Assembly: GCA_048882385.1 (NCBI GenBank)
Contig: JBHLRQ010000094.1
Location: 1-11,474, forward strand
Direction: 5' to 3'
Length of the DNA: 11,474 bases
Source: Candidatus Thorarchaeota archaeon
GTDB lineage: Archaea; Asgardarchaeota; Thorarchaeia; Thorarchaeales; Thorarchaeaceae
Part shown: piece after piece, positions 1 to 11,474 of the stretch
Layout: each line of letters opens with the position of its first letter
Position numbering within the stretch: the first letter of the stretch is position 1
Position numbers and translations under genes: made by a program
The notes under the pieces: generated by a model
Databases searched by the model: none
What the model saw: only the letters and a program-made list of their open reading frames with translations
Told to the model about the DNA's origin: nothing

Positions 1-381
1 GATCCGAATAGAGAAACCATAGACGATTTAGAAACCCTCTTTGCTAAGAGAACTGAACCCAAAGAAGTTCCATCCGACTGGGAAATTGTCCACACAATGC
101 TTGCAGATGGAAAGTATGCTTTTCGAAACGATAACTGCGTTTTTCTTAATGCCATAGGAGAAGACCTGCCTGATTCTGAGCTAAAATACTACGTCTGTTG
201 CTATGGTGATTATGAGAAGTTCAGGAATTACCATGATAGTGTAATCCTAACAATGGAACACACAATTGCCCAAGGGGATCCATACTGTTCTCGTGTACTT
301 CATGACACTCGGGTTGACTGGAATCTACAACACCCTCCGAAGAGCTTCTGGGACAGCATGGAACCTGATAATGAACATTAA
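1..381 (+). CDS. 5'-truncated L-2-amino-thiazoline-4-carboxylic acid (ATC) hydrolase-like protein
   Basis: The frame is open from base 1 (DPNRETIDDLETLFAKR...) into the 97..381 ORF, so the gene starts outside the window. The Cys pattern NCVF...VCCYGD...TMEHTIAQGDPYC resembles the family's 'TxAxGxxxC' C-terminal motif. Confidence 0.6.
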   Translation, partial: DPNRETIDDLETLFAKRTEPKEVPSDWEIVHTMLADGKYAFRNDNCVFLNAIGEDLPDSELKYYVCCYGDYEKFRNYHDSVILTMEHTIAQGDPYCSRVLHDTRVDWNLQHPPKSFWDSMEPDNEH

Positions 382-463
382 AACATCTTTGTTCCTTTAT
401 ACATAACATAATTTTCAAATTGCTATCGAGCCCAAAGTTGTCTATCGTTAAATTGTATTAGAA

Positions 464-895
464 GTGTGGCACATGACATCATTAGATGATTTTCACATTA
501 AAGTCGATATTCCCATTGCTTGGGGCGACATGGACGCTTTCAAACATGTAAACAATACACTATTTTTCAGATACTTTGAAACTGCCCGTATAAGATACTT
601 TGAGGAAGCCGGGTTCCTTGAAACCATGGAGAAGAACTCTATTGGTCCAATCTTGGGTAGCATCTCAGCCAAATTTATCAAACCCCTGTTTTATCCTGAT
701 ACAGTAACTGTAGGTGCTCGAGTAACTTCTATTGAACCAACCCAATTCATGATGGAATATATTATCGAGAGTAAGTCCAAGGGAATCGCTGCCATCGGTG
801 AATCTAGAATGGTGGTATATGATTACAAGTCTTCAAAGAGAACAAACCTTCCTGAATCCGTCAGAAACAAGATCAGAGAGATTGATTCTATTTAG
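464..895 (+). CDS. Acyl-CoA thioesterase (hotdog fold, 4HBT/YbgC/FadM family)
   Basis: Motif WGDMDAFKHVNNTLFFRYFETAR and FIKPLFYPD; ~140 aa. ATG at 473 is an alternative start. Confidence 0.92.
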   Translation: MWHMTSLDDFHIKVDIPIAWGDMDAFKHVNNTLFFRYFETARIRYFEEAGFLETMEKNSIGPILGSISAKFIKPLFYPDTVTVGARVTSIEPTQFMMEYIIESKSKGIAAIGESRMVVYDYKSSKRTNLPESVRNKIREIDSI

Positions 896-905
896 AACGA
901 GAAAG

Positions 906-937
906 TGGCGCCCCCGCCGGGACTTGAATCCGGGTCT
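906..937 (-). repeat. tRNA-Asp 3'-end fragment, copy 1 (att-like)
   Basis: Minus strand reads AGACCCGGATTCAAGTCCCGGCGGGGGCGCCA, 29/32 identical to tRNA bases 3858-3889. It overlaps the TAG stop of the methyltransferase. Confidence 0.92.
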
Positions 938-1772
938 ATGGCACTTCTCCAATTCCTAAGAACATGCTAACCATCAAGAATCTACCAGGATGATTAAGAA
1001 ACTCATCCAACTCTTTGTAAACCTTATCACTTTCTTCAGAAGTGATGATGCCTTGTTCAATCAAAAGATCCTTTATTTGTTCGTAACTCTGTTTTAAATT
1101 AGAAATATACGCTTCTAGAGCTTCTGCATTATCTCTCGTCATAACGGCCGGAAGTGGAATGATTCTAATCGACTTCAGTTCTGCTTGTTGGAATATGTCA
1201 TATAGCTGTTTTCCAATGTGTCGATTGACATTTTTTGTTTTCATCCATTCAATAGATTTCATTCTAAGTTCTGTTGACTTCGGAGTTGGTGGATAGATTA
1301 GCATTACATCATCATCAGTATCTGACACCGCAACAATTCCCCCGCTTTTTGTCACACGTCGTAGCTCAGATACTACCTTAACAGGATTTTGAACATGCAT
1401 TAAGACAAGTCTACAATATGATAAATCGAACATGGAATCGGAGAATCGGAGGTCTGTGACATCCCCCACCTCAAACTGAATATTCTCAATCTCTTCTTTG
1501 GCTGCAAATTCCTTAGCCTTTGTTATAAAGAATTCATCAAGATCAACTCCAACCACGTTCGAAGGTGCAACTCTTTTGGCAATTCTTCTTGTAACTGCAC
1601 CTGTTCCGCAACCAGCATCAAGGATTTTTAATCCTGAAGCAATCTGCAATATATCAAACTCATTGCTTAGGTGTTCTTCATCCTCATCTGCTTGAAATTC
1701 AAGACGAGTTACTTCCTCTTCCGTACCTTCATGCACATAACCTGTTCTTTCGTTCATCTCCAATCTCTCCAC
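936..1772 (-). CDS. Class I SAM-dependent methyltransferase (UbiE/Methyltransf_11/31-like)
   Basis: Motif I ILDAGCGTG, then VVGVDLD, GDVTDLRFSDSMFDL and LRRVTKSGG. Confidence 0.93.
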   Translation of the reverse strand: MERLEMNERTGYVHEGTEEEVTRLEFQADEDEEHLSNEFDILQIASGLKILDAGCGTGAVTRRIAKRVAPSNVVGVDLDEFFITKAKEFAAKEEIENIQFEVGDVTDLRFSDSMFDLSYCRLVLMHVQNPVKVVSELRRVTKSGGIVAVSDTDDDVMLIYPPTPKSTELRMKSIEWMKTKNVNRHIGKQLYDIFQQAELKSIRIIPLPAVMTRDNAEALEAYISNLKQSYEQIKDLLIEQGIITSEESDKVYKELDEFLNHPGRFLMVSMFLGIGEVP

Positions 1773-1863
1773 AATTATTTAGCACTCGGTTGAAACAAAC
1801 TGTTCGCTGACTAATGACCATTTTGGAATTCAAGTGTTTAGTGAAAAAAGTCATGAAGAGAAG

Positions 1864-1894
1864 TGGCGCCCCCGCCGGAACTTGAACCCAGGTC
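1864..1894 (-). repeat. tRNA-Asp 3'-end fragment, copy 2 (att-like)
   Basis: Minus strand reads GACCTGGGTTCAAGTTCCGGCGGGGGCGCCA, 27/31 identical to tRNA bases 3859-3889. It overlaps the TGA stop of the LRR gene. Confidence 0.9.
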
Positions 1895-3344
1895 ATTCGT
1901 ATATGTACTCAAGCATTGTTATGTACTTCCAATCAGTTTCAATATCATTCAAATGCTGCCGTATTTGATCGATTTCATTCTTTGTCAAAGTGTATCTTTT
2001 TCTCGTTTGATTCCTAGGGAGTACAAATCCTCTTTCTTCAAACGCTTGTTGACCATAAACAGTATCCAACAATGAATGAATGTAGTAGTTATCACCAAGT
2101 CTGTTGTCTTTTGAATACTGGATGAACACGACATCTCGTATCTCTTTGACACGTATCTCTTGTATCCTTGGAATGAACTGATCAAACATTGATTTATCTG
2201 ATATAATCTTCTCAATATCAAACCCTTTTGTACTGTGTTCACCATCAAGATACCGAGCTACCATATCTACAATGTTTTCATCTAGACGTTCCTTGACAAT
2301 CTTTGTATTTGGTCTTCTCCTGTTGGTGGGTTCAACTAATCGTAATAGGTCCGTGGGAATAACACAACGAGAGATATCAATTTGATACCTGTCTCTCTCA
2401 ATACCGCATGCCTTCAAGATGTACCTATTAAGACCAAGCCAGTAGATTGGTGCGAAGAATGACGCATACTCTTGTAGTATAACATAGGTAGTCTTCCAAT
2501 CCTCTTTTGGCAACTTGGCATATACAATATCACTCTGTGTTTCATTAACACGAAGCCATGTTTTCCCACATTCTTGTGAAACCAAAATAGGCAGACTAAT
2601 CCGACGAAATCCTCCACTGTCAAACATCTTAATCGTATTTTTGAAGACCAAGAGATTTGGCAAGCTTAGTAATGGAGTACAGTCCATTGGAGGTACAACA
2701 CTAAAGTCTGGAGGTTCATGAATCCAGCGAAACACGTCTGCATGATGTTCTATTGAGAGATGCACCAATTCCTGTAGATGCACAAGCGGTGTAAGGTCAA
2801 TAGAATCATCATTTGTAGAAATTGCTAGGCCTCGTAATCCCTTGCACTTACTAATGATCAATATATCGGGATGAAATAAATCTGGATTAAATCTACCACT
2901 CACAATCCTAAGAAACCGCAACGATTTACAGTCGCCAATATTATCCATTCTGATATTTCTGAGACTCTTATTGTCAACTATATGTATGCCCCTAATTCTT
3001 GGAGCTTCTAGCAAAATTCGCATATCAATCTCTTCAATCTCTGGATTTTGTGCAATCCTCATGTATTCAAGAGATGCACACTCATTGACAGAAGTCATGT
3101 CTATTTCTTTATAGGAACCGCCTCGTATCATGATTCTTTTCAAGTTTGAAAGACGAAACAAAAAATCCAGAGAAAGATGTTCTTTGAAATTAGTATTTAG
3201 ATGAATAATCAGGTTTTCAAATTCTTTCTCATCTAATAGTGATAATTCGGACTCCAGTTGAGCCATCGTGTATATGAATTTGATTTCAACAGTTTTACCC
3301 CTCTGTATATGTTCAGGAGAGGGATCCTTTCTCCTACCGACCAT
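1893..3344 (-). CDS. Leucine-rich repeat protein with uncharacterised C-terminal region
   Basis: N-terminal half has degenerate LRRs (LSNLKRIMI, CASLEYMRIAQN, CKSLRFLRI, IDLTPLVHLQELVHLSI, MDCTPLLSLPNL). Start codon uncertain. Confidence 0.75.
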   Translation of the reverse strand: MVGRRKDPSPEHIQRGKTVEIKFIYTMAQLESELSLLDEKEFENLIIHLNTNFKEHLSLDFLFRLSNLKRIMIRGGSYKEIDMTSVNECASLEYMRIAQNPEIEEIDMRILLEAPRIRGIHIVDNKSLRNIRMDNIGDCKSLRFLRIVSGRFNPDLFHPDILIISKCKGLRGLAISTNDDSIDLTPLVHLQELVHLSIEHHADVFRWIHEPPDFSVVPPMDCTPLLSLPNLLVFKNTIKMFDSGGFRRISLPILVSQECGKTWLRVNETQSDIVYAKLPKEDWKTTYVILQEYASFFAPIYWLGLNRYILKACGIERDRYQIDISRCVIPTDLLRLVEPTNRRRPNTKIVKERLDENIVDMVARYLDGEHSTKGFDIEKIISDKSMFDQFIPRIQEIRVKEIRDVVFIQYSKDNRLGDNYYIHSLLDTVYGQQAFEERGFVLPRNQTRKRYTLTKNEIDQIRQHLNDIETDWKYITMLEYIYE

Positions 3345-3477
3345 AAGTAGGTCTAGTCATAATCCCTATAATATCATCTGATAGTCAATGTGTGGTGTTT
3401 TGAACAAGATGTTACATTCGAAAAGCAATCAAGTGGAAAATGAATAGTGTGAGAATGATGATTGCACTGAGAGAAAG

Positions 3478-3509
3478 TGGCGCCCCCGCCGGGACTTGAA
3501 CCCGGGTCT
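3478..3509 (-). repeat. tRNA-Asp 3'-end fragment, copy 3 (att-like)
   Basis: Minus strand reads AGACCCGGGTTCAAGTCCCGGCGGGGGCGCCA, 30/32 identical to tRNA bases 3858-3889, followed by CTTTCTC. Confidence 0.92.
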
Positions 3510-3513
3510 GATT

Positions 3514-3720
3514 ATGCCTATTGATTAGTCCCCTAGTGAAACTATACTTAGTAATAGGGCTGCAGATATTCATGGACAGTACTCGAAGATTAGATGTGCA
3601 TTAGCATTTCCACCCAACCATCCACAGAAATCAAGCCGAAGTGAGAATTTCCTTCGCTCTCAGAATCTGGATGATGTAATGATGATTGGAGAACAGTTGA
3701 AGAATGAAGGAATTCTCTAG
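3514..3720 (+). pseudogene. Possible gene remnant next to repeat copy 3
   Basis: ATG at 3514, in-frame TAG at 3526, then 63 open codons (SPSETILSNRAADIHGQYSKIRCALAFPPNHPQ...EQLKNEGIL) to TAG at 3718-3720. No family recognised. Confidence 0.25.
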
Positions 3721-3744
3721 ATTATGATGTTCTCGACCGATGAG

Positions 3745-3751
3745 TTTAATA
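3745..3751 (+). promoter_or_regulatory. Putative TATA box of the tRNA-Asp gene
   Basis: TTTAATA lies 31-37 nt upstream of the tRNA 5' end. Confidence 0.5.
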
Positions 3752-3781
3752 GAAAATCGACTTTGCTCCAACCGAACCGCA

Positions 3782-3889
3782 GCCCCTGTAGTGTAGTACG
3801 GTCAATGCTGTAAATGTTCTACAGTATCCGGATTAGCATTCAAGACTGTCACTCTTGAGACCCGGGTTCGAATCCCGGCGGGGGCGCCA
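3782..3889 (+). tRNA. tRNA-Asp(GTC) with ~30-nt D-loop intron and encoded CCA
   Basis: Acceptor stem GCCCCTG/CGGGGGC, discriminator G plus CCA, anticodon arm CAAGA-CT GTC AC-TCTTG (anticodon 3848-3850), T arm CCGGG-TTCGAAT-CCCGG. Mature length is about 78 nt after intron removal. Confidence 0.95.
3804..3833 (+). other. Non-canonical (D-loop) tRNA intron with relaxed bulge-helix-bulge motif
   Basis: 8-bp helix ATGCTGTA(3805-3812)/TACAGTAT(3820-3827), central helix ACGG/CCGG (3 of 4 pairs), 3-nt bulges TCA and ATT. Removal restores ...CGGTCTAGCAT. Boundaries may be off by 1 nt. Confidence 0.8.
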
Positions 3890-3895
3890 CTTTTT
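3890..3895 (+). terminator. Oligo-T archaeal terminator of tRNA-Asp
   Basis: CTTTTT immediately follows the CCA. Confidence 0.55.
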
Positions 3896-3905
3896 GACTC
3901 ATGTA

Positions 3906-6900
3906 CTAGTAATAATCAATTACCACTCCCTTGTTTTCAAACGCATCTTCTACCTCTCTCAAGATAGATTCTATTGTATCCTTGCTTACCTTACGATCTC
4001 TTAGATTGAGCTTGACTTCTTGCTTGATGAAGTCAAAAGATATCGATTGGTTCTTTGCAATTTCAGATGATACTGATACTACTATCACCTCCTCAAAGTC
4101 AGTTTCGTCATCTACATTGCACAGATGTGCAATCGCATCCAAAGATCTCTGACGTGAAGATTCCTCCACATGTACTCTGACAAACCTAAGTTCTGGTGCT
4201 GAATCATCAATTTCGAACACTTCGTCATCAATCAGTTTTGACTCTTCCAATTCAGCTGATTCAAGTTCGTCTATTTCCCCAATTATCGAGTTTTGAATTC
4301 GTGGATAATCAGAGAGGAGATGAACCACTCTAAGACTGACAAGAGCCTTTGAATCAATCGTGACATCACACCTTTTCCCGGAATCCGAGTCCACAAGTTG
4401 TCTAGACTCTGCCAATAGAGCTATATCGAATATCCCCATGTCCTCCATCTCAAGACCAATCAGATGTCCTCTTCCCTGTAGTCCATCCAGCTGGATCTTG
4501 AGACACTTCTTGTAACCTCGGTCCTTTCGTTGTTCATCGACTATTATTCTCAGAGTTATGTCTTCACCAGCTTTGGTCATCAAGAAGTCCTCACAGGTCA
4601 GAGGTAATTTGTAGCTGTCTGAATAGAACGAGTATCTGTGGATGAGTGGCTTGAACACTGACAAGTGATAGAAGTCATACTTCCCATCTCTGTTCTTGAG
4701 TTTCACTTCATCATACTCGATGTCTTTCTGAGCATCCCACTTGAGGTATGTGCCGTCTGCAGTCGAAAAGTACTCTCCAATTCTCTGGGGGTATCTGAGG
4801 AATCTGATCACCTCATCAGTATACTGAGTTTCCTTCTTTGCTATGGTCTTTGAGCCTTCATTCAGGTCAATCCTGTAGACCTTTTTTTCAGGGTCAAGGG
4901 TAAGGAAACATGAAACCTCTCTTACCACACCGCTCCACTCAGCAGCCTCTTTTAGCACTTCGTCACACTCTGTTTCGATATCAGAGTAAAAGGAACTTGG
5001 CTTGTACATGTTCAAGGCTACAAGAGTTCCGGGTGACGGTTGTGACAGTCTGATCCAACGTACAGGTTGATTCTGCCCCTTTGGAGGATTTCCGTACTCC
5101 AACAGACCATTCTGAACCCATTCTTCCTCGCCCTTTGTGTAGAGCACGTGTTGTTTGTTCATAAAAACAAGAACAATCGGATATTCCACCCACCCCTCTC
5201 TTGACAAGGCACTTTTTGCACTCTTCGAGAGTTTTTGAGGATCTATCTCACCTCTATACCACCCATAGCGAAGAATGGCACTCATCTGCTCCTCCAACAA
5301 CGCACCAAATATAGTCTTCTTGATTGAAGAAAACAATAGCCAGATACTGCCACCATCACTCTTCTCTTGAAAGAGCAATAGTCCGTGTTGTTCAGGAAAT
5401 CTTGTGGTTGTTTGCGAAGTTGTCTTCTTCATCTGTTTTGCCCTCCATGTGAGATTTGAGTGGATTGCTTGAAAGTCATACCTGTGTTCGAATTCTCCGT
5501 CATCCTGTTGCCTGAAACCAATCTGATAGAGCTGCCATCGTGCAACTGATGACCATAGATTGTTACAATGAGGGGACTCTGCATCTCTTAGGACTCTAGT
5601 TGCTACATCAAGTACTCCAAGAAAGAGATTCATTCCATAGAGATCCATGAGTTCAGGATTATGACCCAATGCTTGTTTCAATGTCCTCAGGTCATCAGAG
5701 TTCAATAGGTTTCCAAGATTCAACCTGTCATTGAGGAGAAGTGTCCAGAGACGCTGAGTTTCAGTTCTGCGAAGAATGGCCTCCCTGACTTGAGTGAGAA
5801 TTTCCAGTAGATTCTCCTCAGTAATAGTTTCGTTGTTGTCATAAGTACAGAGTGAAACGATCTTTCTGTAGAGAGAGCGATAGGAAGTTGGTCTCTTACT
5901 GAGGAACTCAGCAGCGTATGACAACCGTAGGACTTCTCTTCGTCTGGTATCAATCGTATCGATATGAGATGATTCAGATGAATAAGTAAAAGCTGGTCTT
6001 CGGGTGATTGTTACTGATTCTTCTTCCTCTTCGTCAGTTTCTTTATGAATCCACCCTCGTGTGATGGACTTTGCCTCAACATAGATCCCCTCATGACCAG
6101 TTCCTATTCGGTTTGGATGCGGTGGCTCTCTATTCACATCAAGATGCAGTCTGCTTGATAGACTTGGTTGAACACTGTTTGCATTGACACTGTGAAAGGT
6201 CGTTGACCAATCAACATTATGTTTATTGACCAGACTCAGTGGTTGTCCATCTCTAGGTCTGAGAAGACTTGGAATCAGGATGAATGCATGCTTTGTAATT
6301 TCTTCCAAGGAGATCATGTCAATAGTGTCAGAACGCACCTGGATGGATGAACTTCGAAAAGACCGTCCATGCATGTTTTTATGTTGATTCAGATCACCAG
6401 TTTGCCTCTCGATTTTGACAATAGGACTTCTAACGGAAGCCTTGCTGAACTTGCGGCTCAGACCCTTGAGATGCGGTACATGGATGACCGTGGACCATGG
6501 ATCTTGTTTTGTTGGTAGGTCCTGAATGATCACTCGACTGTCCTCATACTCCGGGATCTGCCACCCCATCTTTCGAGGAGCTGTGGGCACATTCCATAGA
6601 ACCTCGTCAATGACTTGTTTCCTGGGAGATTTGTAGTAGAATGGACTTGGACTGTTCCGTTGATAGAGCTCGGAAACCTGTGGAAGGTCAACTCCTGTAT
6701 CAGTCCAGATCACCTCGTTCATGAGATTCTTTACAATCTGAAGCAGTGAAAGTTCAAGCACCTGTAGATTGTTCCTATGAGTCATAGGAGTCATATTCTC
6801 CAAGTCCGACCAGCCATCCACAACTGCAATTCGATTCTCTGACTCAGATTGAAGAGCTGCAGTGATTGCAGACTTCGCTTTCTCGATTCCTGATTGTTTC

Positions 6901-8999
6901 CCGTTGATGAGAAATCCATCAATATCATTTCTAAGACTGACAAAGGTGACTCTTTCTAACAGTCTTCTCAGTCTTGCATATTCTGGATTCGTAATCAGCT
7001 TGTTCTTCTTTAGATCCTCAAGTCCAAATCGTTTCTCTATCAGTTTCTTTGTTGGAAAATCACCGATTAGATCAATCCAAGTCAAAGAAGTTTCTGTGTT
7101 TGCAACCTGTTCAAGCTCTGCAAGGTGGTTCAAGAGATGCCAGTTCTTGGCAAACCATGTTGCACTCTTGCCAAATGATGTTGGAGATGATAGTGAAATG
7201 TACTGAGTGAAGAAGGTGTCATCCTCCACTCTATCTACAAAGGGGTCTTCGAATAGAACATCTTTGAGGGGATTGATACGTTTTAGTACATCCACAGGAC
7301 CTTGTGCTGGAGTCATTGTAACGGCTACTCGAGGAGCTATCTGTTCTGTAGACTTGTCTTTGAATTTGAGTGACTTCCACTGTCCCTTGAATTCTCCTTT
7401 CATTATTCGATTAGCCAGGTCGGAGATGATGTAATCGAACGCTCGCTTTGTGTCTTCGTAGTCTTGAGAAACATCAAGTGTGACCACTCCCTTCCAGAGT
7501 TCTTTGAAAGCAATAGTTTCACCGATGATTGAATGGTACTCTGATAACAGGGCATTCTCATATGCATCTATCTGGTCAAGATGGATTTTAGGGGGCTTTG
7601 AACCAAGTGTTTCACCCCATTCTGATGTCTTGAGAGGTTCTTTCCAAGCGTTCAAGACTGGTGTGAAGACATTGGATTTTTTCGTACGAGGACGTTTTCC
7701 AAATAGGTTGAAGTCGAATCCAGTCTTGGTCTTCACCTCAAGAATCATGATGGGCGCCCAGATATGGCTACCACGCCAACGAATACGAACAAAAAGGACA
7801 AGGTCTATCTTTCCTGATTCTTGAGTTCCAGTGACTGGAACTTCAGCAAAATACTGAAACCCAGAAGGAGTCTGAAGGAGATGGTCTCCAGCAAAGATAG
7901 CCTCTTTGAGTGAGTGAGGTTGAGGATATCCAGAAAGCAACACTCTGTGCCAGTTGTTCCCTTCTAGTTGTACGCTCCTCATGATGTTTTCAAGGAACGT
8001 TTCCACTTCTCTGTGTGTGACGATTCTTCTCTCAATGTGCTGAAGAATTATCCTACATTTCTTCTTGGTTTTTCTGTCTTCTGAGTTTTCTTGTATTGCT
8101 TCAACCTGTTCTTTGAGAGCATCTATTCCAAAACCTTGAGGAACATCTTCGACCGGTTTACTCATTCTCTCTCTAGTCCCAATGTGTCTGCTGTAGTTGT
8201 TCCTGATTTCAAGTACAATCTTTCTCAATTCCCTGTCTGCGCCGGGGGAGAAATCCTTGCGACCTGTCTTTCCTCGTGTGTACACCCAATCGAGAAATGG
8301 GGTCAGTCTATGAATCAACAGTCTAATGTATCGATGTGACTCAGTTCGAGGTACACAATGGATGAAGCATTGTCGACAGAGCTCAATGAGATGAGCTCGT
8401 AGCATATCTCCAAAGTCCATGGCTGGTAGTGTAGGATGTGTAAGTAACACTCGAGGATTCTTAGAGTTGCCTCGATATCCCGCTTTCAAGTGAGTCTTCA
8501 CCCCAAGTGCTGCTGGGACCTTGGCCGCTACATCTTTTGGAATGACTTGCTCTGTTCCATCTGGATATTCTCGGATCTCGTAGAGCTGTGGGGTTGGGAA
8601 TGTATAACGTGGAACAACGATATCTCGTAGTGTTGCTCCAGCATAATTCAGTAGACTATTGAGTTCTCCAATGGTGCCCTCTTTCCAGCTGTATACTCGC
8701 CTCCTCTCTTTGTTGCCGTATCGTTTCGTGCTAAGCCAGAGCATACGTAGATTCAGCTTTCTGAGGTGGGATTCTATCTTCTGAACTTTAGAGAAATCAT
8801 GCGGGCGGCTTGATCCGTCCATTTTCTTATTCACTTGGATAGATTTCCATTTGTTTCTAATTTTTTCAAAGATTTCTTCTGTCTGTCTATTCTTTCGTCT
8901 ATTTGCTAACCAGACTAGAGCTGATAATCCTGAATAAAGTGCAGTAGCTAGAACTACATTCGGTCTGAATTCCTGAGTTCTTCTCCCCAAATAGGACAC
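3906..8999 (-). CDS. Large multidomain protein: PD-(D/E)XK nuclease domain + degenerate P-loop NTPase-like domain + long unknown C-terminal region
   Basis: 1697-aa uninterrupted ORF. Nuclease motifs E386, GKID399, ILE421VK423 and Q476IDAY480 (RecB/Cas4-like QxxxY). Walker A-like SSPTSFGK611S and Walker B-like RIAVVD728G. The true start may be ATG at 8822 (MDGSS). Confidence 0.8.
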   Translation of the reverse strand: MSYLGRRTQEFRPNVVLATALYSGLSALVWLANRRKNRQTEEIFEKIRNKWKSIQVNKKMDGSSRPHDFSKVQKIESHLRKLNLRMLWLSTKRYGNKERRRVYSWKEGTIGELNSLLNYAGATLRDIVVPRYTFPTPQLYEIREYPDGTEQVIPKDVAAKVPAALGVKTHLKAGYRGNSKNPRVLLTHPTLPAMDFGDMLRAHLIELCRQCFIHCVPRTESHRYIRLLIHRLTPFLDWVYTRGKTGRKDFSPGADRELRKIVLEIRNNYSRHIGTRERMSKPVEDVPQGFGIDALKEQVEAIQENSEDRKTKKKCRIILQHIERRIVTHREVETFLENIMRSVQLEGNNWHRVLLSGYPQPHSLKEAIFAGDHLLQTPSGFQYFAEVPVTGTQESGKIDLVLFVRIRWRGSHIWAPIMILEVKTKTGFDFNLFGKRPRTKKSNVFTPVLNAWKEPLKTSEWGETLGSKPPKIHLDQIDAYENALLSEYHSIIGETIAFKELWKGVVTLDVSQDYEDTKRAFDYIISDLANRIMKGEFKGQWKSLKFKDKSTEQIAPRVAVTMTPAQGPVDVLKRINPLKDVLFEDPFVDRVEDDTFFTQYISLSSPTSFGKSATWFAKNWHLLNHLAELEQVANTETSLTWIDLIGDFPTKKLIEKRFGLEDLKKNKLITNPEYARLRRLLERVTFVSLRNDIDGFLINGKQSGIEKAKSAITAALQSESENRIAVVDGWSDLENMTPMTHRNNLQVLELSLLQIVKNLMNEVIWTDTGVDLPQVSELYQRNSPSPFYYKSPRKQVIDEVLWNVPTAPRKMGWQIPEYEDSRVIIQDLPTKQDPWSTVIHVPHLKGLSRKFSKASVRSPIVKIERQTGDLNQHKNMHGRSFRSSSIQVRSDTIDMISLEEITKHAFILIPSLLRPRDGQPLSLVNKHNVDWSTTFHSVNANSVQPSLSSRLHLDVNREPPHPNRIGTGHEGIYVEAKSITRGWIHKETDEEEEESVTITRRPAFTYSSESSHIDTIDTRRREVLRLSYAAEFLSKRPTSYRSLYRKIVSLCTYDNNETITEENLLEILTQVREAILRRTETQRLWTLLLNDRLNLGNLLNSDDLRTLKQALGHNPELMDLYGMNLFLGVLDVATRVLRDAESPHCNNLWSSVARWQLYQIGFRQQDDGEFEHRYDFQAIHSNLTWRAKQMKKTTSQTTTRFPEQHGLLLFQEKSDGGSIWLLFSSIKKTIFGALLEEQMSAILRYGWYRGEIDPQKLSKSAKSALSREGWVEYPIVLVFMNKQHVLYTKGEEEWVQNGLLEYGNPPKGQNQPVRWIRLSQPSPGTLVALNMYKPSSFYSDIETECDEVLKEAAEWSGVVREVSCFLTLDPEKKVYRIDLNEGSKTIAKKETQYTDEVIRFLRYPQRIGEYFSTADGTYLKWDAQKDIEYDEVKLKNRDGKYDFYHLSVFKPLIHRYSFYSDSYKLPLTCEDFLMTKAGEDITLRIIVDEQRKDRGYKKCLKIQLDGLQGRGHLIGLEMEDMGIFDIALLAESRQLVDSDSGKRCDVTIDSKALVSLRVVHLLSDYPRIQNSIIGEIDELESAELEESKLIDDEVFEIDDSAPELRFVRVHVEESSRQRSLDAIAHLCNVDDETDFEEVIVVSVSSEIAKNQSISFDFIKQEVKLNLRDRKVSKDTIESILREVEDAFENKGVVIDYY

Positions 9000-9165
9000 T
9001 CCAGCTATTCCTTTTCAATTTTATTTATAAGTATTTCATACTTATTCAGAAGTCTATAATTTATAAAAATAGCCTTATCAGTTTTTATTTTCTTAATTAA
9101 AGGATTTATAATATATTTTCATAATAACTTAATAAGGAAACTTGTATGATAAATCTATGAGTTAA
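9000..9165. promoter_or_regulatory. Very AT-rich divergent promoter region containing the self-target 9126-9140
   Basis: Several TATA-like boxes (TTTATAA 9060, TTTATAAT 9105, TTAATAA 9129) lie between two head-to-head genes. Confidence 0.65.
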
Positions 9166-9168
9166 TTA

Positions 9169-9236
9169 CTCCAATTCTAGACAAAGATTGGAGTGAACTC
9201 AACTGACCTGAAACAGGTCAGAACTTAATAAGGAAA
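9169..9236 (+). ncRNA. Candidate leader/tracr-like RNA with built-in 15-nt guide
   Basis: Hairpins CTCCAAT/ATTGGAG (9169-9193) and CTGACCTG-AAA-CAGGTCAG (9203-9221). Bases 9186-9214 are complementary to downstream repeat 1. Bases 9222-9236 are identical to 9126-9140. Confidence 0.55.
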
Positions 9237-9245
9237 GACAAAGCG

Positions 9246-10922
9246 ATGGCTCGGTCCAAGGGTGTGACAATCTCGGTTAAGGTCCCAATCAACTGGGAAG
9301 CCATGACCGAGAGGACTAAGCAGAGACTTAGGCAGACCATTGGGCGAGACACCAGAGTGATACGTGCATTCCTTGGAATTATTGAACAACATGAAGACAA
9401 GTTGTTGACAGGTCGTAAGAAAAATCGGATTGATGAAGGTGAGCTGGATAAGCTCACTATGACTGCACTCCAAGTCAAGGCGGGCTATAGTCAGAGACTG
9501 ACCGTACCTCATGACTTCAAGGCGAGGTTCCCTCGAATATCTCAGAACGAGATGACCGAGTGCAGACAGACTGCAGTTTCTTTGTATGAGAGTTATCTTA
9601 AGCTCAGAATAAAGAATGGATTGAGAGCTTCTCGCCCTGCATCAATCAATAGAAGTCGACGTATTCCCAGATGGGTCTTTGCTCAACGATTCAGACTTGT
9701 TGAAAAACGTACATCTTCAGCCCGCTGGTGGCTAGACATCAGGGATTCTCTTGACTCCGTACAGGCTGGACGTACATTTCACGATAGATTAGTCATTCCA
9801 TTGAAGGTTTCACCCTTTCACCTGAATCAACTCCACCGTGGAGATGTAAAGGCTGTACAGATCTTCACTGATCGATTCAGAAAGTGGTGGGTGACAATGG
9901 CTGTCAGGGTAGCGGTTGATGACTTCCACAAGAGTGAGCTTCCTGCAGCGATACTTGGAATAGACCTCGGCATTGAAAAGGCCGCATGTTCAACTCTTCT
10001 GACTCCAGAGAAGACGAGGGAAACAAGATACTTCATCCAAAAAGAGAAGGTCAAGGTCATCAAGAAGTACGATGGACTTGTCGCCGACCTGCAGAGGAAA
10101 ATGCACCTCCGCAGAGACAACGGAAAACCTCATGATAAGATGGCAGTAAGGCTCCGACAGATGAAGAGTAAGAGGGAGAATGTAGCCAAGGAGTATGATA
10201 GAGTTCTAGTTCGACAACTCCTTGATTACATCTCCACACTGTCCAAGAAATACACACTCTATGTTGCCATTGGTCGCCTGAAGAATATACGAATGCGTGC
10301 CAGAAGAGGAAACTATCAAGGTTCTAGGTACCGGGCCATGATACATTCATGGGCTTTTGCCCGGATAACCGATAGTCTGAAACATGGACTTGCTCAGCTC
10401 GGTTGGAAGGTTGAGGGAAAGGACTCGAGGTTCCGTGCAGTTCCTGAGGCTTGGACTTCCATCATGTGCTGGAAGTGTGGAAGCAGGGGTAAGAGACCCA
10501 AACAGAACTATTTCCACTGTCCATCCTGTGGTCACAAGACCAACGCTGATAGGAATGGTAGTATCAATATTGCTGCACGCATGCTTAAGCTCACAAAGTC
10601 ACTGCACTCTGTGAGAGGACTAGGTATGTGGACTAGAGCTCTAGATGGAGTTCGACGTGCACGACCAAAAGCTCAAGAGAAACAACTTTCTCAAGGGAAG
10701 TCCTTACTCTCTTTTAAGGATCAAACATCAGATCTTGGAGAGTCCGCGGCTGTTCACCATACTCAGATGAGTCTTCTCAGCTTCAGCGATGAATCTGGGA
10801 AGGGTGATGATGACCCCGCCGTGGTAAGTACTGTGGAAACTCTTGCTGTCGTTGGAAGTGATGATCCGACATCAGTACAGGAGAAAAAAGCCAGGTCTTC
10901 AGGAGGGATTCCATCCCGATGA
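9246..10922 (+). CDS. tnpB: TnpB/Cas12f-like RNA-guided RuvC protein with rearranged catalytic site
   Basis: RuvC-I ILGID240LG; RuvC-II position YVAIG343RL (Gly instead of Glu); alternative Glu in VPE401AWTS; zinc ribbon C408/C411/C425/C428; RuvC-III NAD435RNGSINIA; ~115-aa C-terminal tail. Confidence 0.88.
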   Translation: MARSKGVTISVKVPINWEAMTERTKQRLRQTIGRDTRVIRAFLGIIEQHEDKLLTGRKKNRIDEGELDKLTMTALQVKAGYSQRLTVPHDFKARFPRISQNEMTECRQTAVSLYESYLKLRIKNGLRASRPASINRSRRIPRWVFAQRFRLVEKRTSSARWWLDIRDSLDSVQAGRTFHDRLVIPLKVSPFHLNQLHRGDVKAVQIFTDRFRKWWVTMAVRVAVDDFHKSELPAAILGIDLGIEKAACSTLLTPEKTRETRYFIQKEKVKVIKKYDGLVADLQRKMHLRRDNGKPHDKMAVRLRQMKSKRENVAKEYDRVLVRQLLDYISTLSKKYTLYVAIGRLKNIRMRARRGNYQGSRYRAMIHSWAFARITDSLKHGLAQLGWKVEGKDSRFRAVPEAWTSIMCWKCGSRGKRPKQNYFHCPSCGHKTNADRNGSINIAARMLKLTKSLHSVRGLGMWTRALDGVRRARPKAQEKQLSQGKSLLSFKDQTSDLGESAAVHHTQMSLLSFSDESGKGDDDPAVVSTVETLAVVGSDDPTSVQEKKARSSGGIPSR

Positions 10923-11474
10923 ATGTTGACAACGCTCTTGCTAATTTTGGCAAATTCTTTTGGATTTTGCTAGGAGGTGGTGACACTGGCAAGAGAGGGG
11001 CGGAACACAGAGGTTTCTTTCAGTTGTGGTTCACTCACAATCTCAGAAGCAGGTCATACACTACAGGGGCTCGGGTACTATGATTGAGCATAGAGGTTAT
11101 TTGCAGTTGCGGAACACACACAATATCAAAAGCAGGTCATGATGTTCACTCACTTTGTGGAATAGGTTATGCTAGATCGGACTTCACTTGGTATAGCATA
11201 GTATTAGATGAATGAGTGAATCATTCTGATAGGTCATGGAGTAACATCTAAGGACTTGTTCTAAATCCCACCTAGTGTTACGGAGATATAGCTCACTAAC
11301 CAACAGCCTGAGTAGTTGTGAAAAGATTACAGAGTAGATTTATTACCATCCGAGCCCTATAGAAGAGTGGCTCACAGAGCCAAGCTGCCCCTAGACCTTA
11401 CTCCATTTCTGTGTTTTATCGCAACCCTTTTATGGCTACAGAATTCCCCGTCCTTTGCTCAGACAGAACTGCTT
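10923..11474 (+). ncRNA. Candidate large structured ncRNA/guide region downstream of the tnpB-like gene (may extend past the window end)
   Basis: No substantial ORF. Many stems: 10935-41/10989-95, 11002-14/11405-17, 11067-74/11350-57, 11145-52/11213-20, 11168-74/11194-200, 11236-44/11398-406, 11368-82. AGGT(C/T)AT recurs. Confidence 0.55.
11009..11140 (+). CRISPR. Mini-array-like unit: two imperfect 49-bp direct repeats around a 34-nt spacer that matches the tRNA-Asp gene
   Basis: Repeats 11009-11057 and 11092-11140 match at 40/49 positions and both end in AAGCAGGTCAT. Bases 11057-11071 are the exact reverse complement of 3781-3795. Not a canonical CRISPR array. Confidence 0.55.

What the first reader, a model, noticed from the sequence alone, without database searches (positions are those of the whole stretch)
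906..3509. Integron-like array of single-gene cassettes bounded by tRNA-Asp 3' fragments, with stop codons fused to the repeat
Seen: three co-oriented 31-32-bp tRNA 3' ends (spacing 958 and 1614 bp) all start at the variable-loop (A)GAC. Each of the two intervals holds exactly one co-oriented gene whose stop codon overlaps the first bases of the next fragment (TAG|ACCCGG, TGA|CCTGGG). No integrase is in the window. Known: integrative elements duplicate tRNA 3' ends as att sites, but usually flank larger islands carrying their own integrase. Inference: minimal cassettes accreted in tandem by a trans-acting enzyme, possibly the neighbouring system, which has a guide to the same tRNA. Use as mRNA 3'-processing or termination signals is an alternative.
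Basis: partly seen in the sequence, partly recalled or inferred. Interest (0 to 1): 0.8.

Follow-up and report, generated by a model that had tools for sequence, protein, structure and literature searches.

The report
Integrase-less gene cassettes at tRNA-Asp
In an Asgard (Thorarchaeota) archaeon, two single genes sit between spare copies of the tail of the aspartate tRNA gene, and related species carry different small genes at the same copies, so this tRNA acts as a gene-swapping site although no recombination enzyme is encoded nearby.

Summary
Three co-oriented copies of the tRNA-Asp 3' end (variable loop to CCA plus a CT-rich tail) lie at 898-937, 1855-1895 and 3469-3509. They bound two one-gene units, a methyltransferase and an LRR-like orphan, whose stop codons overlap the repeats.

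In 23 genomes of the genus this locus, between DinB/SIS and the RNA polymerase operon, is hypervariable. It ranges from empty sites to three extra repeats. Nineteen repeat-to-repeat intervals measure 310-1573 nt and hold 1-3 ORFs each. One cassette recurs at 89% identity in a different array position.

I read the repeats as att-type scars of serial insertion of tiny integrase-less cassettes at the tRNA T-arm/3' end, made by an enzyme supplied in trans.

- No tyrosine, serine or Y1 recombinase was found in the genome, and none among about 180 neighbouring ORFs.
- Integron membership fails: there is no IntI or attC, genes lie in both orientations, and each cassette has its own promoter.
- The stop-codon overlap is not general.
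- The neighbouring TnpB does carry a 14-nt match to the tRNA 5' end, but arrays also occur in genomes where it was not found.
- The intact tRNA-Asp is inverted relative to the array.

Similar arrays flank tRNA-Tyr and tRNA-Phe in this genome. This scan noted the same kind of array before in other Thorarchaeota DNA.

The parts
1..381 (+). 3' part of an ATC_hydrolase-family gene. It is an older accessory gene of the variable region and the backbone-side flank.
   Evidence: Pfam PF14196, E 2.9e-7. Orthologues lie next to SIS/DinB in G013, G015 and G016.
464..895 (+). Thioesterase (4HBT_2) gene. Its 3' end abuts the CCA end of repeat 1. In relatives the same junction is formed with the intact tRNA.
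   Evidence: Pfam PF13279, E 2.9e-26. In G020 and G010 the thioesterase abuts the full tRNA-Asp. An X12 contig, 97% alike, continues after 937 into the tRNA anticodon arm.
898..937 (-). Repeat 1: a copy of tRNA-Asp from about nt 44 to 76 plus a CT-rich tail. It is the oldest attR-like scar.
   Evidence: nhmmer E 8e-14. There is one mismatch in the 25-nt core.
936..1772 (-). Cassette 1 gene: a class I SAM-dependent methyltransferase of 278 aa. Its stop codon TAG overlaps repeat 1. A TATA-like box (TAAATAAT) lies about 20-30 nt upstream of the start.
   Evidence: Pfam Methyltransf_31, E 3e-32. ORF. The sequence is read. The cassette is colinear with the G013 cassette at 81% identity. GC is 38.8%, against 42.7% for the genome.
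1855..1895 (-). Repeat 2. Its two T-stem changes both leave G-U pairs.
   Evidence: E 3e-12. At the same position G013 has a truncated three-intron tRNA-Asp.
1893..3344 (-). Cassette 2 gene: a 483-aa near-orphan with a weak N-terminal LRR signal. Its stop codon TGA overlaps repeat 2.
   Evidence: Pfam LRR_8, E 0.008, below the family cut-off. Only one relative (40% identity, a Thorarchaeota MAG) among 5.8 billion proteins. There is a distant likeness to an LRR cassette protein in another tRNA-Asp array. GC is 37.4%. No listed match to this stretch in any relative searched (28 genomes of the genus together).
3469..3509 (-). Repeat 3. It matches the consensus core exactly and no ORF ends at it.
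   Evidence: E 1.3e-14.
3511..3721 (.). Non-coding spacer between repeat 3 and the tRNA promoter. It is not shared with G013.
3722..3889 (+). Promoter region (3722-3781) and intact tRNA-Asp(GUC) gene (3782-3889), with a D-loop intron of about 30 nt at about 3798-3827. The gene is inverted relative to the three repeats. Its T loop reads TTCGAAT, against TTCAAGT in the repeats.
   Evidence: The intron was placed by comparison with intron-less orthologues. The promoter is conserved in relatives of both orientations.
3906..8999 (-). Giant ORF of 1697 aa with no Pfam family, convergent with the tRNA 3' end. It is part of a unit (3722-11071) that is 92.8% identical in G013.
   Evidence: The same gene-tRNA pairing occurs in G016 contig C140.
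9246..10922 (+). TnpB (Cas12f1-like TNB domain), 558 aa. It is the only full copy in this genome.
   Evidence: Pfam PF07282, E 1.8e-13..
10923..11070 (+). Omega-RNA-like right end of the TnpB element, ending ...AGGTCAT at 11056. It is followed by 14 nt (11057-11070) that are the reverse complement of tRNA-Asp nt 1-13 plus one upstream base, in the guide position.
   Evidence: The conserved right end is shared with a remnant on C147, with G011 and with G013. Repeat pair I6. The stub is conserved in G013.
11086..11140 (+). Second, degenerate copy of the last 55 nt of the TnpB right end.
   Evidence: Direct repeat D2, 80% identity.

Best explanation
The three repeats are attachment-site scars (attR-type partial tRNA-Asp copies). 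Very small units of DNA, each a promoter plus one or two genes and one copy of the tRNA's T arm to CCA, were inserted one after another into the 3' end of the tRNA-Asp gene by Campbell-type recombination, most likely with the crossover in or next to the T loop.

Each insertion rebuilt the tRNA with the incoming copy and pushed the previous 3' end, with everything behind it, further away. The order from oldest to newest in this window is therefore thioesterase flank, methyltransferase, LRR-like gene.

The units carry no recombinase, so the enzyme must have acted in trans. It could come from a virus or plasmid that is not in the bin, or from an unrecognised host enzyme.

Later, the working tRNA gene with its promoter came to lie inverted next to the array, inside a unit with a giant gene and a TnpB element. 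The present arrangement is therefore not the direct product of insertion.

Shown:
- the repeats and their tRNA origin;
- a genus-wide hotspot with empty, differently filled and reshuffled states;
- small, densely coding intervals;
- the ancestral downstream flank retained at the distal repeat;
- no recombinase detected.

Inferred:
- circular cassette intermediates;
- the type of recombinase;
- the crossover position;
- how the tRNA became inverted.
For: (1) Origin and non-chance of the repeats.

(2) The hotspot. In the genus genomes whose locus I fetched (31 loci, 23 genomes) the tRNA-Asp lies between SDR-HEAT-SIS-DinB and the RpoB/RpoA' operon. G012, G001 and G014 have DinB directly next to the tRNA, which is the empty state. 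Sixteen of the 23 genomes have 1-3 extra repeats; G009 is unclear because its contigs end there.

(3) In genomes with the simple orientation (G007, G010, G015, G016, G020, G022, G041, G042) the intact tRNA is followed downstream by co-oriented partial copies. This is the classical attL...attR layout.

(4) The distal repeat keeps the ancestral downstream flank. The flank of the G020 distal repeat matches the flank of the G014 intact tRNA in 29 of 30 nt. Other cassette-specific junctions recur whether the left copy is a repeat or the tRNA itself.

(5) Cassettes are discrete units. A 1.1-kb methyltransferase cassette is 89.1% identical from repeat to repeat in G016 and in a metagenome contig, but lies on opposite sides of a small-membrane-protein cassette in the two.

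(6) All 19 co-oriented repeat-to-repeat intervals, in 13 genomes, are 310-1573 nt long with 1-3 ORFs and a coding fraction of at least 0.64. No integrase pseudogenes or long debris were seen.

(7) The LRR cassette has no listed match in any relative searched (28 genomes of the genus in all), and both window cassettes have low GC.

(8) A contig from a mangrove metagenome that is 97% alike has the thioesterase followed by a tRNA copy reaching at least to the anticodon arm, at the position of repeat 1.

(9) Every copy and every intact gene is followed by a CT-rich tract. This is expected if each copy once served as the working 3' end with its terminator.

(10) The same layout occurs at tRNA-Tyr (two cassettes) and tRNA-Phe in this genome. 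It varies among species, with tRNA-Tyr joined directly to the distal flank in G004, G043, G010 and G042.

(11) The T stem, 7-nt loop and T stem form the inverted-repeat/overlap geometry used by tRNA-targeting tyrosine integrases. This point is recalled from Williams 2002, which is cited in PMC9897764; I did not read it.
Against: - No recombinase was found. PF00589, PF00239 and PF01797 give no hit in this 95%-complete genome. PF00589 hits only 8 of 28 genus genomes, on contigs where the 25-nt tRNA-Asp 3'-end pattern (up to 2 mismatches) had no match. None of 179 ORFs scanned around arrays was an integrase.
- An exact-match scan of IMG/VR found no element carrying the site.
- No circle or excision junction was seen. 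Only assembled contigs were available.
- The 5' limit of the repeats is not uniform. About ten copies start at (A)GAC. Others start inside the T stem or T loop, and some reach back to the anticodon or D arm. That fits several enzymes, or homologous recombination, better than one fixed att site.
- In this window the intact tRNA is inverted, so an extra rearrangement must be assumed.
- In G013 the thioesterase lies at another locus with no repeats nearby, so not all movement of these genes involves the repeats.
Confidence: 0.6

Rival explanations
1. The intervals are the last remnants of ordinary, much larger integrase-carrying viruses or plasmids that integrated at tRNA-Asp and then lost their integrase and replication genes by deletion. 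This is CIME-like decay followed by accretion.
For: This is the textbook route to integrase-less, att-flanked segments (PMC5704250, passage read). Partial tRNAs as attR sites of 9-23 kb elements are documented in Thermococcaceae (PMC9897764, passages read). MAG binning tends to lose mobile elements, so active parents could exist unseen. Tyrosine recombinases do occur in 8 of 28 genus genomes.
Against: All 19 intervals are 1.6 kb or shorter and densely coding, with intact ORFs and no recombinase or replication pseudogenes. Random decay should leave a broad size range and debris. One cassette keeps identical repeat-to-repeat limits in two genomes at different array positions. No full-size parent was seen in 31 genus loci or 24 metagenome loci.
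Confidence: 0.2
2. No site-specific enzyme is involved. DNA from relatives that already carries 'tRNA copy - gene - tRNA copy' is exchanged by homologous recombination or gene conversion, using the tRNA, the 25-60 nt copies or the conserved flanks as homology. Breaks made in the tRNA gene by the TnpB-guide RNA complex might stimulate this.
For: The repeat lengths vary, from the T loop up to the D arm. No recombinase was found in most genomes. The TnpB right end is followed by 14 nt matching the tRNA-Asp 5' end, conserved in G013. TnpB elements sit next to tRNA genes in several relatives.
Against: It does not explain how the first gene-plus-partial-tRNA units arose. Twenty-five nucleotides is very short for homologous exchange. 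Arrays occur in genomes where this TnpB was not found. The guide matches the 5' end, not the repeated part. TnpB cleavage and its TAM were not tested.
Confidence: 0.12
3. The copies are kept because they work as RNA signals: a T-arm hairpin plus a pyrimidine tract that ends or processes the upstream mRNA.
For: In the window both cassette genes end exactly at a copy. Each copy is followed by a CT/T-rich tract. The two changes in repeat 2 keep G-U pairs in tRNA sense.
Against: The copies lack the 5' acceptor strand, so they cannot form a tRNA-like minihelix. Six of 13 cassette types face the other way. Repeat 3 follows no gene. The G013 copy of repeat 1 has a 4-nt deletion and two changes, which is decay at about the neutral rate. 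This reading does not explain the empty or reshuffled states. No RNA data could be examined.
Confidence: 0.05
4. The repeats and their order are an assembly artefact.
For: Short-read contigs of other runs break at the copies (X8 pieces 1860-3494, 3465-3863 and 3864-5759).
Against: Independent assemblies hold 84-97% of the sampled words of 400-4000. G013 has the colinear methyltransferase cassette. The copies differ from one another, so they are not collapsed duplicates. The same architecture is seen in many genomes.
Confidence: 0.03

Closest known systems
Tandem accretion at tRNA genes and cis-mobilizable elements (CIMEs) of bacterial ICE/IME systems (review PMC5704250, passage read; Pavlovic 2004 and Bellanger 2011 seen only as references)
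   Same: Several direct copies of the 3' end of a tRNA gene separate segments that lack integration and transfer genes. New arrivals insert at the intact end.
   Different: CIMEs are decayed ICEs or IMEs of several kb, and a related integrase-bearing element is usually found in tandem. Here the units are 0.3-1.6 kb with 1-3 intact ORFs and no parent element or integrase anywhere in the genome, and the host is an Asgard archaeon.
Tycheposon-built genomic islands of Prochlorococcus (bioRxiv 10.1101/2020.12.28.424599, passages read)
   Same: tRNA-proximal islands grow by repeated insertion. Elements are separated only by partial tRNA copies. The cargo is accessory or defence genes, and content varies strongly between strains.
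   Different: Each tycheposon carries its own tyrosine (rarely serine) recombinase and often replication genes, and measures several kb to more than 10 kb. None of these hallmarks is present here.
Integrons and CALINs (clusters of attC sites lacking an integrase). Recalled from Cury et al. 2016 and Ghaly et al. 2022, neither read here.
   Same: An array of one-gene cassettes, each ending in a recombination site. Cassettes are reusable in different order. As in CALINs, there is no integrase beside the array.
   Different: No IntI, attI or attC. The site is a tRNA 3' end. Genes lie in both orientations with their own promoters. Arrays are short, with at most three extra copies.
Archaeal tRNA-targeting integrative elements and their attR partial tRNAs (PMC9897764, passages read). 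SSV-type and pTN3-type integrases are recalled.
   Same: Partial tRNA copies mark integration. Inversions that put the partial and full copies on opposite strands are documented in Thermococcus kodakarensis.
   Different: Those elements are 9-23 kb viruses or plasmids with integrases. No split integrase (SSV type) is present here.
Aloposons of Heimdallarchaeia (PMC8813620, passages read)
   Same: A giant gene lies directly beside a tRNA gene, and Asgard-specific mobile DNA sits at tRNA sites.
   Different: Aloposons have tandem 3000-6000 aa genes plus a four-gene module with a ParA-like ATPase. Here there is one 1697-aa ORF with a TnpB. Homology was not tested.
IS200/IS605-type TnpB-omega RNA elements. 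Recalled from Karvelis 2021, Altae-Tran 2021 and Meers 2023, none read here.
   Same: The TnpB gene is followed by a conserved right end, and the flank lies in the guide position.
   Different: There is no TnpA in the genome. The flank is a 14-nt copy of an essential tRNA's 5' end. The element is fixed at the same place in two species.

Membership tests
Integron | An IntI-type tyrosine recombinase gene next to the array | tested here: not met
   No PF00589 hit in the window ORFs or in the whole genome. No integrase among 179 ORFs scanned around arrays in this genome, in relatives and in metagenome contigs.
Integron | attC recombination sites: 55-140 bp imperfect palindromes closing each cassette | tested here: not met
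   The repeats are colinear copies of tRNA-Asp nt 44-76. Their only palindrome is the 5-bp T stem.
Integron | Promoter-less, co-oriented cassettes read from a common promoter | tested here: not met
   The window has 2 of 2 genes co-oriented. Across the genus there are 7 sense and 6 antisense cassette types. TATA-like boxes lie upstream of both window genes (sequence).
Integron | Cassettes are discrete units found in different order or context | tested here: met
   The MT282 cassette is 89.1% identical over 1122 nt from repeat to repeat, and its order relative to the sTM cassette is swapped between the two loci. The sTM, thioesterase and TM295 cassettes occur at different array positions.
Site-specific integration at a tRNA gene (attL/attR duplication) | Direct partial copies of the tRNA 3' end, co-oriented with and downstream of the intact gene | tested here: inconclusive
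   Met in 8 genus genomes of simple orientation. In this window the copies are co-oriented with each other, but the intact gene is inverted. The same inverted layout occurs in G013, G004 and G011.
Site-specific integration at a tRNA gene (attL/attR duplication) | The distal copy keeps the ancestral downstream flank, and empty sites exist in relatives | tested here: met
   The flank of the G020 distal copy matches the flank of the G014 tRNA in 29 of 30 nt. Empty sites are seen in G012, G001 and G014. An X12 contig shows a tRNA copy, to at least the anticodon arm, at the position of repeat 1.
Site-specific integration at a tRNA gene (attL/attR duplication) | An integrase encoded by the inserted element | tested here: not met
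Site-specific integration at a tRNA gene (attL/attR duplication) | Excised circular form with a single att copy | not testable with these tools
   Only assembled contigs of public runs could be laid on the window. No circle junction was seen.
CIME (cis-mobilizable element) | [quoted passage not shown] | tested here: met
   Structure as described. The definition is from PMC5704250.
CIME (cis-mobilizable element) | Derived by decay from a related ICE or IME that can mobilise it in cis | tested here: inconclusive
   No parent element or pseudogene debris was found in 31 genus loci and 24 metagenome loci. Absence from MAGs is weak evidence.
SSV-type archaeal integration | The integrase gene is split into N and C parts at the two att sites | tested here: not met
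   The ORFs that abut the copies are a complete methyltransferase and an LRR-like protein. The genome has no PF00589 hit.
IS200/IS605 TnpB element as the maker of the array | The element or its guide is associated with each repeat or each array | tested here: not met
   The guide-like flank matches tRNA nt 1-13, not the repeated 3' end. This TnpB was not found in 9 of 28 genus genomes, and 5 of those carry a cassette or an extra copy at this locus.

The most novel reading that the evidence does not exclude
Thorarchaeota have a general gene-cassette capture system that uses the ends of stable-RNA genes as docking sites. Here the docking site is the T arm to CCA of tRNA-Asp, and also of tRNA-Tyr and tRNA-Phe. 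The system moves minimal units of promoter, one or two genes and site, and it is driven by an enzyme that is not a recognisable tyrosine, serine or Y1 recombinase. That would make it an Asgard counterpart of the integron with a new kind of recombinase. The many species of the genus that lack any tyrosine recombinase (20 of 28) would then still be shuffling accessory and defence genes at these sites.
Probability: 0.18. Interest if true: 0.85.

Novelty: new variant of a known kind. Interest (0 to 1): 0.55.

Why it matters
Asgard archaea are studied as the closest prokaryotic relatives of eukaryotes, and how they gain and lose genes is poorly known. This locus shows that in one Thorarchaeota genus a large part of local gene-content variation is packaged as very small, reusable units docked at tRNA genes, without the integrases that normally accompany such islands. 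The units carry methyltransferases, LRR and Schlafen-like proteins, Mrr- and Abi-type defence genes and many orphans.

If the cassettes really move as such, an unrecognised recombination activity, or a very efficient helper element, is waiting to be found. The sites would also offer natural landing pads for genetics in Asgard archaea.

The locus links three things that are usually discussed apart. One is integration at tRNA genes. The second is the striking variation in tRNA introns in this genus (none to three in tRNA-Asp), including a T-loop intron that splits the attachment core. The third is a TnpB element whose guide position holds the tRNA's own 5' end.

Tried and rejected
- **Integrase near the arrays.** Pfam scans of 95 + 49 + 11 + 24 ORFs found none.
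- **Integrase elsewhere in the genome.** PF00589, PF00239 and PF01797 gave no hit.
- **A virus or plasmid carrying the site.** An exact scan of IMG/VR gave two hits, both high-GC bacterial tRNA-Arg genes and unrelated. An exact scan of JGI metagenome contigs gave 24 loci. One of them, L080, looked virus-like but turned out to be a different tRNA in a tRNA cluster. Asking for the full records of four metagenome loci failed because they are not held.
- **Circles or empty sites in reads.** Only Logan contigs were on offer. Two low-depth joints in X12 (895 to 3734, and 3505 back to 178) have short sides and unknown letters between, so I do not count them. Parts of the window without cover in X8, X11 and X12 are not evidence of absence.
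- **The thioesterase as a mobile cassette in G013.** Its second locus (C4) has no tRNA copy and no tRNA gene nearby.
- **Relatives of the methyltransferase cassette outside the genus.** The genome-contig scan returned only the G013 locus.
- **The unknown neighbours of the inverted tRNA as one hidden recombinase family.** The proteins of 483, 504, 560 and 642 aa showed no mutual similarity. Two of them give weak CARF/PD-(D/E)xK-type hits.
- **A split or permuted tRNA at 3478-3600 on the minus strand.** No acceptor 5' strand is present, ARAGORN and Rfam find nothing there, and I dropped the idea.
- **Retroelement primer-binding site or casposon target duplication.** Considered and dropped. The copies are colinear with 31-44 nt of the tRNA and occur only at the tRNA locus.

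Full report
**What is in the window**

The window is the whole of contig C94 of a 3.7-Mb, 95%-complete archaeal MAG with 42.7% GC. A close relative in the same genus is titled a Candidatus Thorarchaeota MAG. That agrees with earlier unchecked notes of this scan on other pieces of this genome.

One search finds three direct copies of 39 nt at 899-937, 1857-1895 and 3471-3509, spaced 958 and 1614 nt apart. Each is the reverse complement of the 3' end of a tRNA gene at 3782-3889 on the plus strand (34-36 nt, 88-94% complementary). A 31-nt pattern with up to 3 mismatches hits only these four places in the genome, and its reversed control hits none.

The gene is tRNA-Asp(GUC). It carries a non-canonical intron of about 30 nt in the D loop, which I placed by comparison with intron-less orthologues. 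ARAGORN therefore misses or miscalls it, and Rfam scores only its 3' two-thirds.

Read in tRNA sense, the copies start at AGAC, GAC and AGAC in the variable loop. They run through the T arm, the acceptor strand and CCA into a CT-rich tail.

Between the copies lie one methyltransferase gene (936..1772) and one 483-aa LRR-like near-orphan (1893..3344), both on the minus strand. Their stops, TAG and TGA, overlap the next copy.

**The locus in relatives**

I fetched this locus from 23 genomes of the genus (31 loci) and mapped genes and copies.

The backbone is conserved. SDR, a HEAT-repeat protein, SIS and DinB lie on one side. On the other side lie a conserved block, a second tRNA gene and the RpoB/RpoA' operon. 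The tRNA-Asp lies between them.

The states observed are these.
- In G012, G001 and G014 the DinB gene abuts the tRNA, which is the empty state.
- Sixteen of the 23 genomes have one to three extra copies. G009 is unclear because its contigs end at the copies.
- Eight genomes show the textbook order, with the intact tRNA followed downstream by co-oriented partial copies.
- The 19 co-oriented copy-to-copy intervals, in 13 genomes, measure 310-1573 nt. Each holds 1-3 ORFs of at least 70 aa, with a coding fraction of 0.64 or more.

The contents are accessory genes:
- thioesterase;
- hemerythrin;
- ATC-hydrolase-like protein;
- two kinds of methyltransferase;
- an 80-aa two-helix membrane protein;
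- a 295-aa membrane protein;
- flavodoxin;
- many singletons.

Beside the arrays, though not inside copy-to-copy intervals, lie an aldo-keto reductase and a Schlafen/AlbA_2 protein. Metagenome contigs add Mrr, AbiTii and LRR genes. None is an integrase or a replication, capsid or transfer gene.

**Evidence that the copies are recombination scars and the intervals discrete units**

- The distal copy keeps the ancestral downstream flank. The flank of the outermost G020 copy equals the flank of the intact G014 tRNA in 29 of 30 nt. Junctions specific to a given cassette recur whether the copy to their left is a fragment or the working tRNA.
- A 1.1-kb methyltransferase cassette is 89.1% identical from copy to copy in G016 and in a metagenome contig. 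It lies nearest the tRNA in one and behind the small-membrane-protein cassette in the other.
- The window's methyltransferase cassette is colinear at 81% identity in G013. The LRR cassette has no listed match in any relative searched (28 genomes of the genus in all).
- Both window cassettes have low GC, 38.8% and 37.4%. The 5th percentile of 1-kb genome windows is 38.9%.
- A mangrove-metagenome contig that is 97% alike continues from the thioesterase through the position of repeat 1 into the tRNA anticodon arm. In that strain a longer tRNA copy, reaching at least the anticodon arm and probably the whole gene, sits where this window has the oldest scar.
- Every copy and every intact gene is followed by a CT-rich tract. 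This is expected if each copy once served as the working 3' end with its terminator.

**What does not fit an integron**

- There is no IntI and no attC.
- Cassette genes face both ways (7 sense and 6 antisense types).
- Both window genes have TATA-like boxes about 20-30 nt upstream of their starts.
- The stop-in-repeat arrangement holds for the methyltransferase, the LRR gene and a 292-aa ORF in G007. In G022 the stop lies 8 nt before the copy. In the MT282 cassette it lies about 130 nt before it. The overlap is therefore a sign of compactness, not a rule.
- Arrays are short, with at most three extra copies.

**The missing enzyme**

PF00589, PF00239 and PF01797 give no hit in this genome, although the same searches ring in control genomes. 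PF00589 hits 8 of 28 genus genomes, on contigs where the 25-nt tRNA-Asp 3'-end pattern (up to 2 mismatches) had no match.

Exact scans of IMG/VR and of JGI metagenome contigs found no element that pairs the site with a recombinase.

This absence is weak evidence. MAG binning loses viruses and plasmids, and divergent recombinases may escape Pfam.

The 5' limits of the copies are heterogeneous. About ten start at (A)GAC, others start inside the T stem or loop, and some reach the anticodon or D arm. This suggests more than one enzyme, or a share of homologous recombination.

**The neighbouring TnpB**

The TnpB at 9246-10922 is followed by a conserved omega-RNA-like right end ending AGGTCAT at 11056. 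Then come 14 nt that are the reverse complement of tRNA-Asp nt 1-13 plus one upstream base.

The block 3722-11071 holds the promoter, the tRNA-Asp, the giant ORF, the TnpB and the stub. It is 92.8% identical in G013, while the flanks differ.

In G013 the position of repeat 2 holds a truncated, three-intron tRNA-Asp lacking about the first 17 nt. G015 has an intact three-intron version. The old tRNA gene was therefore disrupted in that lineage, and the inverted copy is now the working gene.

I could not reconstruct the event. Two or three bases are missing at the junction, and the sequence beyond the stub is not the native promoter.

As the maker of the 3' copies the TnpB is unlikely.
- It points at the other end of the tRNA.
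- This TnpB family was not found in 9 of 28 genus genomes, and five of those carry a cassette or an extra copy at this locus.
- Arrays exist at other tRNAs.

**Other arrays in the same genome**

A scan of the 3' ends of all predicted tRNAs found two co-oriented tRNA-Tyr copies 1.9 and 3.1 kb apart (C1:125448-130596). They bound a beta-helix protein gene and an octopine-dehydrogenase/B12-binding gene pair. A tRNA-Phe copy lies 0.6 kb behind its gene.

The tRNA-Tyr array also varies among species. The beta-helix cassette gave no strong match elsewhere in the genus (one 130-nt match at 72% in G001 and one 99-nt match at 74% in G004). In four genomes the tRNA is joined directly to the distal flank.

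Contig C1 ends with the same 77 nt that start this window, so the two arrays are probably about 16 kb apart.

Earlier notes of this scan describe the same kind of integrase-less array in other Thorarchaeota at tRNA-Ala, at the initiator-tRNA promoter and behind the 23S gene. These are unchecked AI notes and I did not test them.

**Comparison with known systems**

Partial tRNAs as attR sites, tandem insertion, and even inversion of the partial copy relative to the full one are established (PMC9897764, passages). Integrase-less att-flanked segments are known as CIMEs (PMC5704250, passage). tRNA-anchored islands built by cargo elements are known as tycheposon islands (bioRxiv 10.1101/2020.12.28.424599, passages).

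What differs here is the uniformly tiny size, the intact single genes with no decay debris, the lack of any recombinase in most genomes of the genus, and the Asgard host.

My literature searches found no description of such arrays in Thorarchaeota. They were 'Thorarchaeota + tRNA + integration site + integrase' (2 of 3 papers listed) and 'tRNA gene fragments + archaea + integrase' (1 paper). The two Asgard mobile-element papers I consulted, as passages, describe integrase-bearing elements or aloposons. Subscription journals and supplements were not covered.

**Verdict**

The finding is real and more than an ordinary prophage scar. It is a variant of a known process rather than a new category. 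I rate my explanation at 0.6 and interest at 0.55.

Noticed in passing
window 10923-11140 and 11226-11236; L027 (G013) 1380-1640: The TnpB right end (...AGGTCAT) is followed by 14 nt matching the 5' end of tRNA-Asp, and this is conserved in G013. Two further degenerate right-end remnants follow in the window. This genome has no TnpA, and the element sits at the same place in two species. It looks like a fixed TnpB whose guide position holds an essential tRNA's own 5' end.
   Followed up: partly
L028 (G015) 8203-8370; L027 (G013) about 9480-9634; window 3798-3827: tRNA-Asp genes of this genus carry from none to three introns, at the D loop, at 37/38, in the variable loop and in the T loop. The T-loop intron splits exactly the sequence that is duplicated as the attachment core. 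This fits the old idea (recalled from Randau and Soll 2008) that introns protect tRNA genes from integration.
   Followed up: partly
window 3474-3509 and 3858-3893: A 36-nt inverted repeat (94% complementary), made of repeat 3 and the 3' end of the tRNA gene, brackets a 348-nt segment holding the tRNA promoter and the 5' two-thirds of the gene. Recombination between the arms would flip the gene back into the classical orientation. G004 and G011 have the same inverted layout, with 1.4-2.5 kb between the arms.
   Followed up: partly
whole genome G000 and genus: No Phage_integrase-family (XerA-type) tyrosine recombinase was detected in this 95%-complete genome or in 20 of 28 genomes of the genus, although the search rings in all 14 control genomes.
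   Followed up: partly
G000:C1:125448-130596 (L063) and G000:C125:28-703 (L064): The same architecture occurs at tRNA-Tyr, with two cassettes (a beta-helix/NosD-like protein, and an octopine-DH plus B12-binding protein pair), and at tRNA-Phe. The tRNA-Tyr array varies among species of the genus.
   Followed up: partly
window 11325-11474; L032 1785-2119: The last 150 nt of the window are highly conserved across the genus. In relatives this block precedes a second, intron-containing tRNA gene (Rfam 56 bits) that diverges from tRNA-Asp upstream of the RNA polymerase operon.
   Followed up: partly
window 3906-8999: A 1697-aa ORF with no Pfam or PADLOC family lies convergent with the tRNA 3' end and only 16 nt from it. 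This recalls the giant-gene-next-to-tRNA layout of Heimdallarchaeial aloposons. Orthologues occur in G013 and G016, and G004 has an unrelated 1192-aa ORF at the same place.
   Followed up: no
window 1-77 and G000:C1:141674-141750: The first 77 nt of this contig are identical to the last 77 nt of contig C1, which looks like an assembly-graph overlap. The window probably continues C1, which would place the tRNA-Tyr array about 16 kb upstream.
   Followed up: no
genus-wide: This TnpB family is very active in some species, with up to 35 matches in G015. It leaves many remnants that encode only the last ~100 residues together with the right end. Several copies sit beside tRNA genes, for example next to tRNA-Tyr in G007 and G024 and next to tRNA-Asp in metagenome locus L089.
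   Followed up: no
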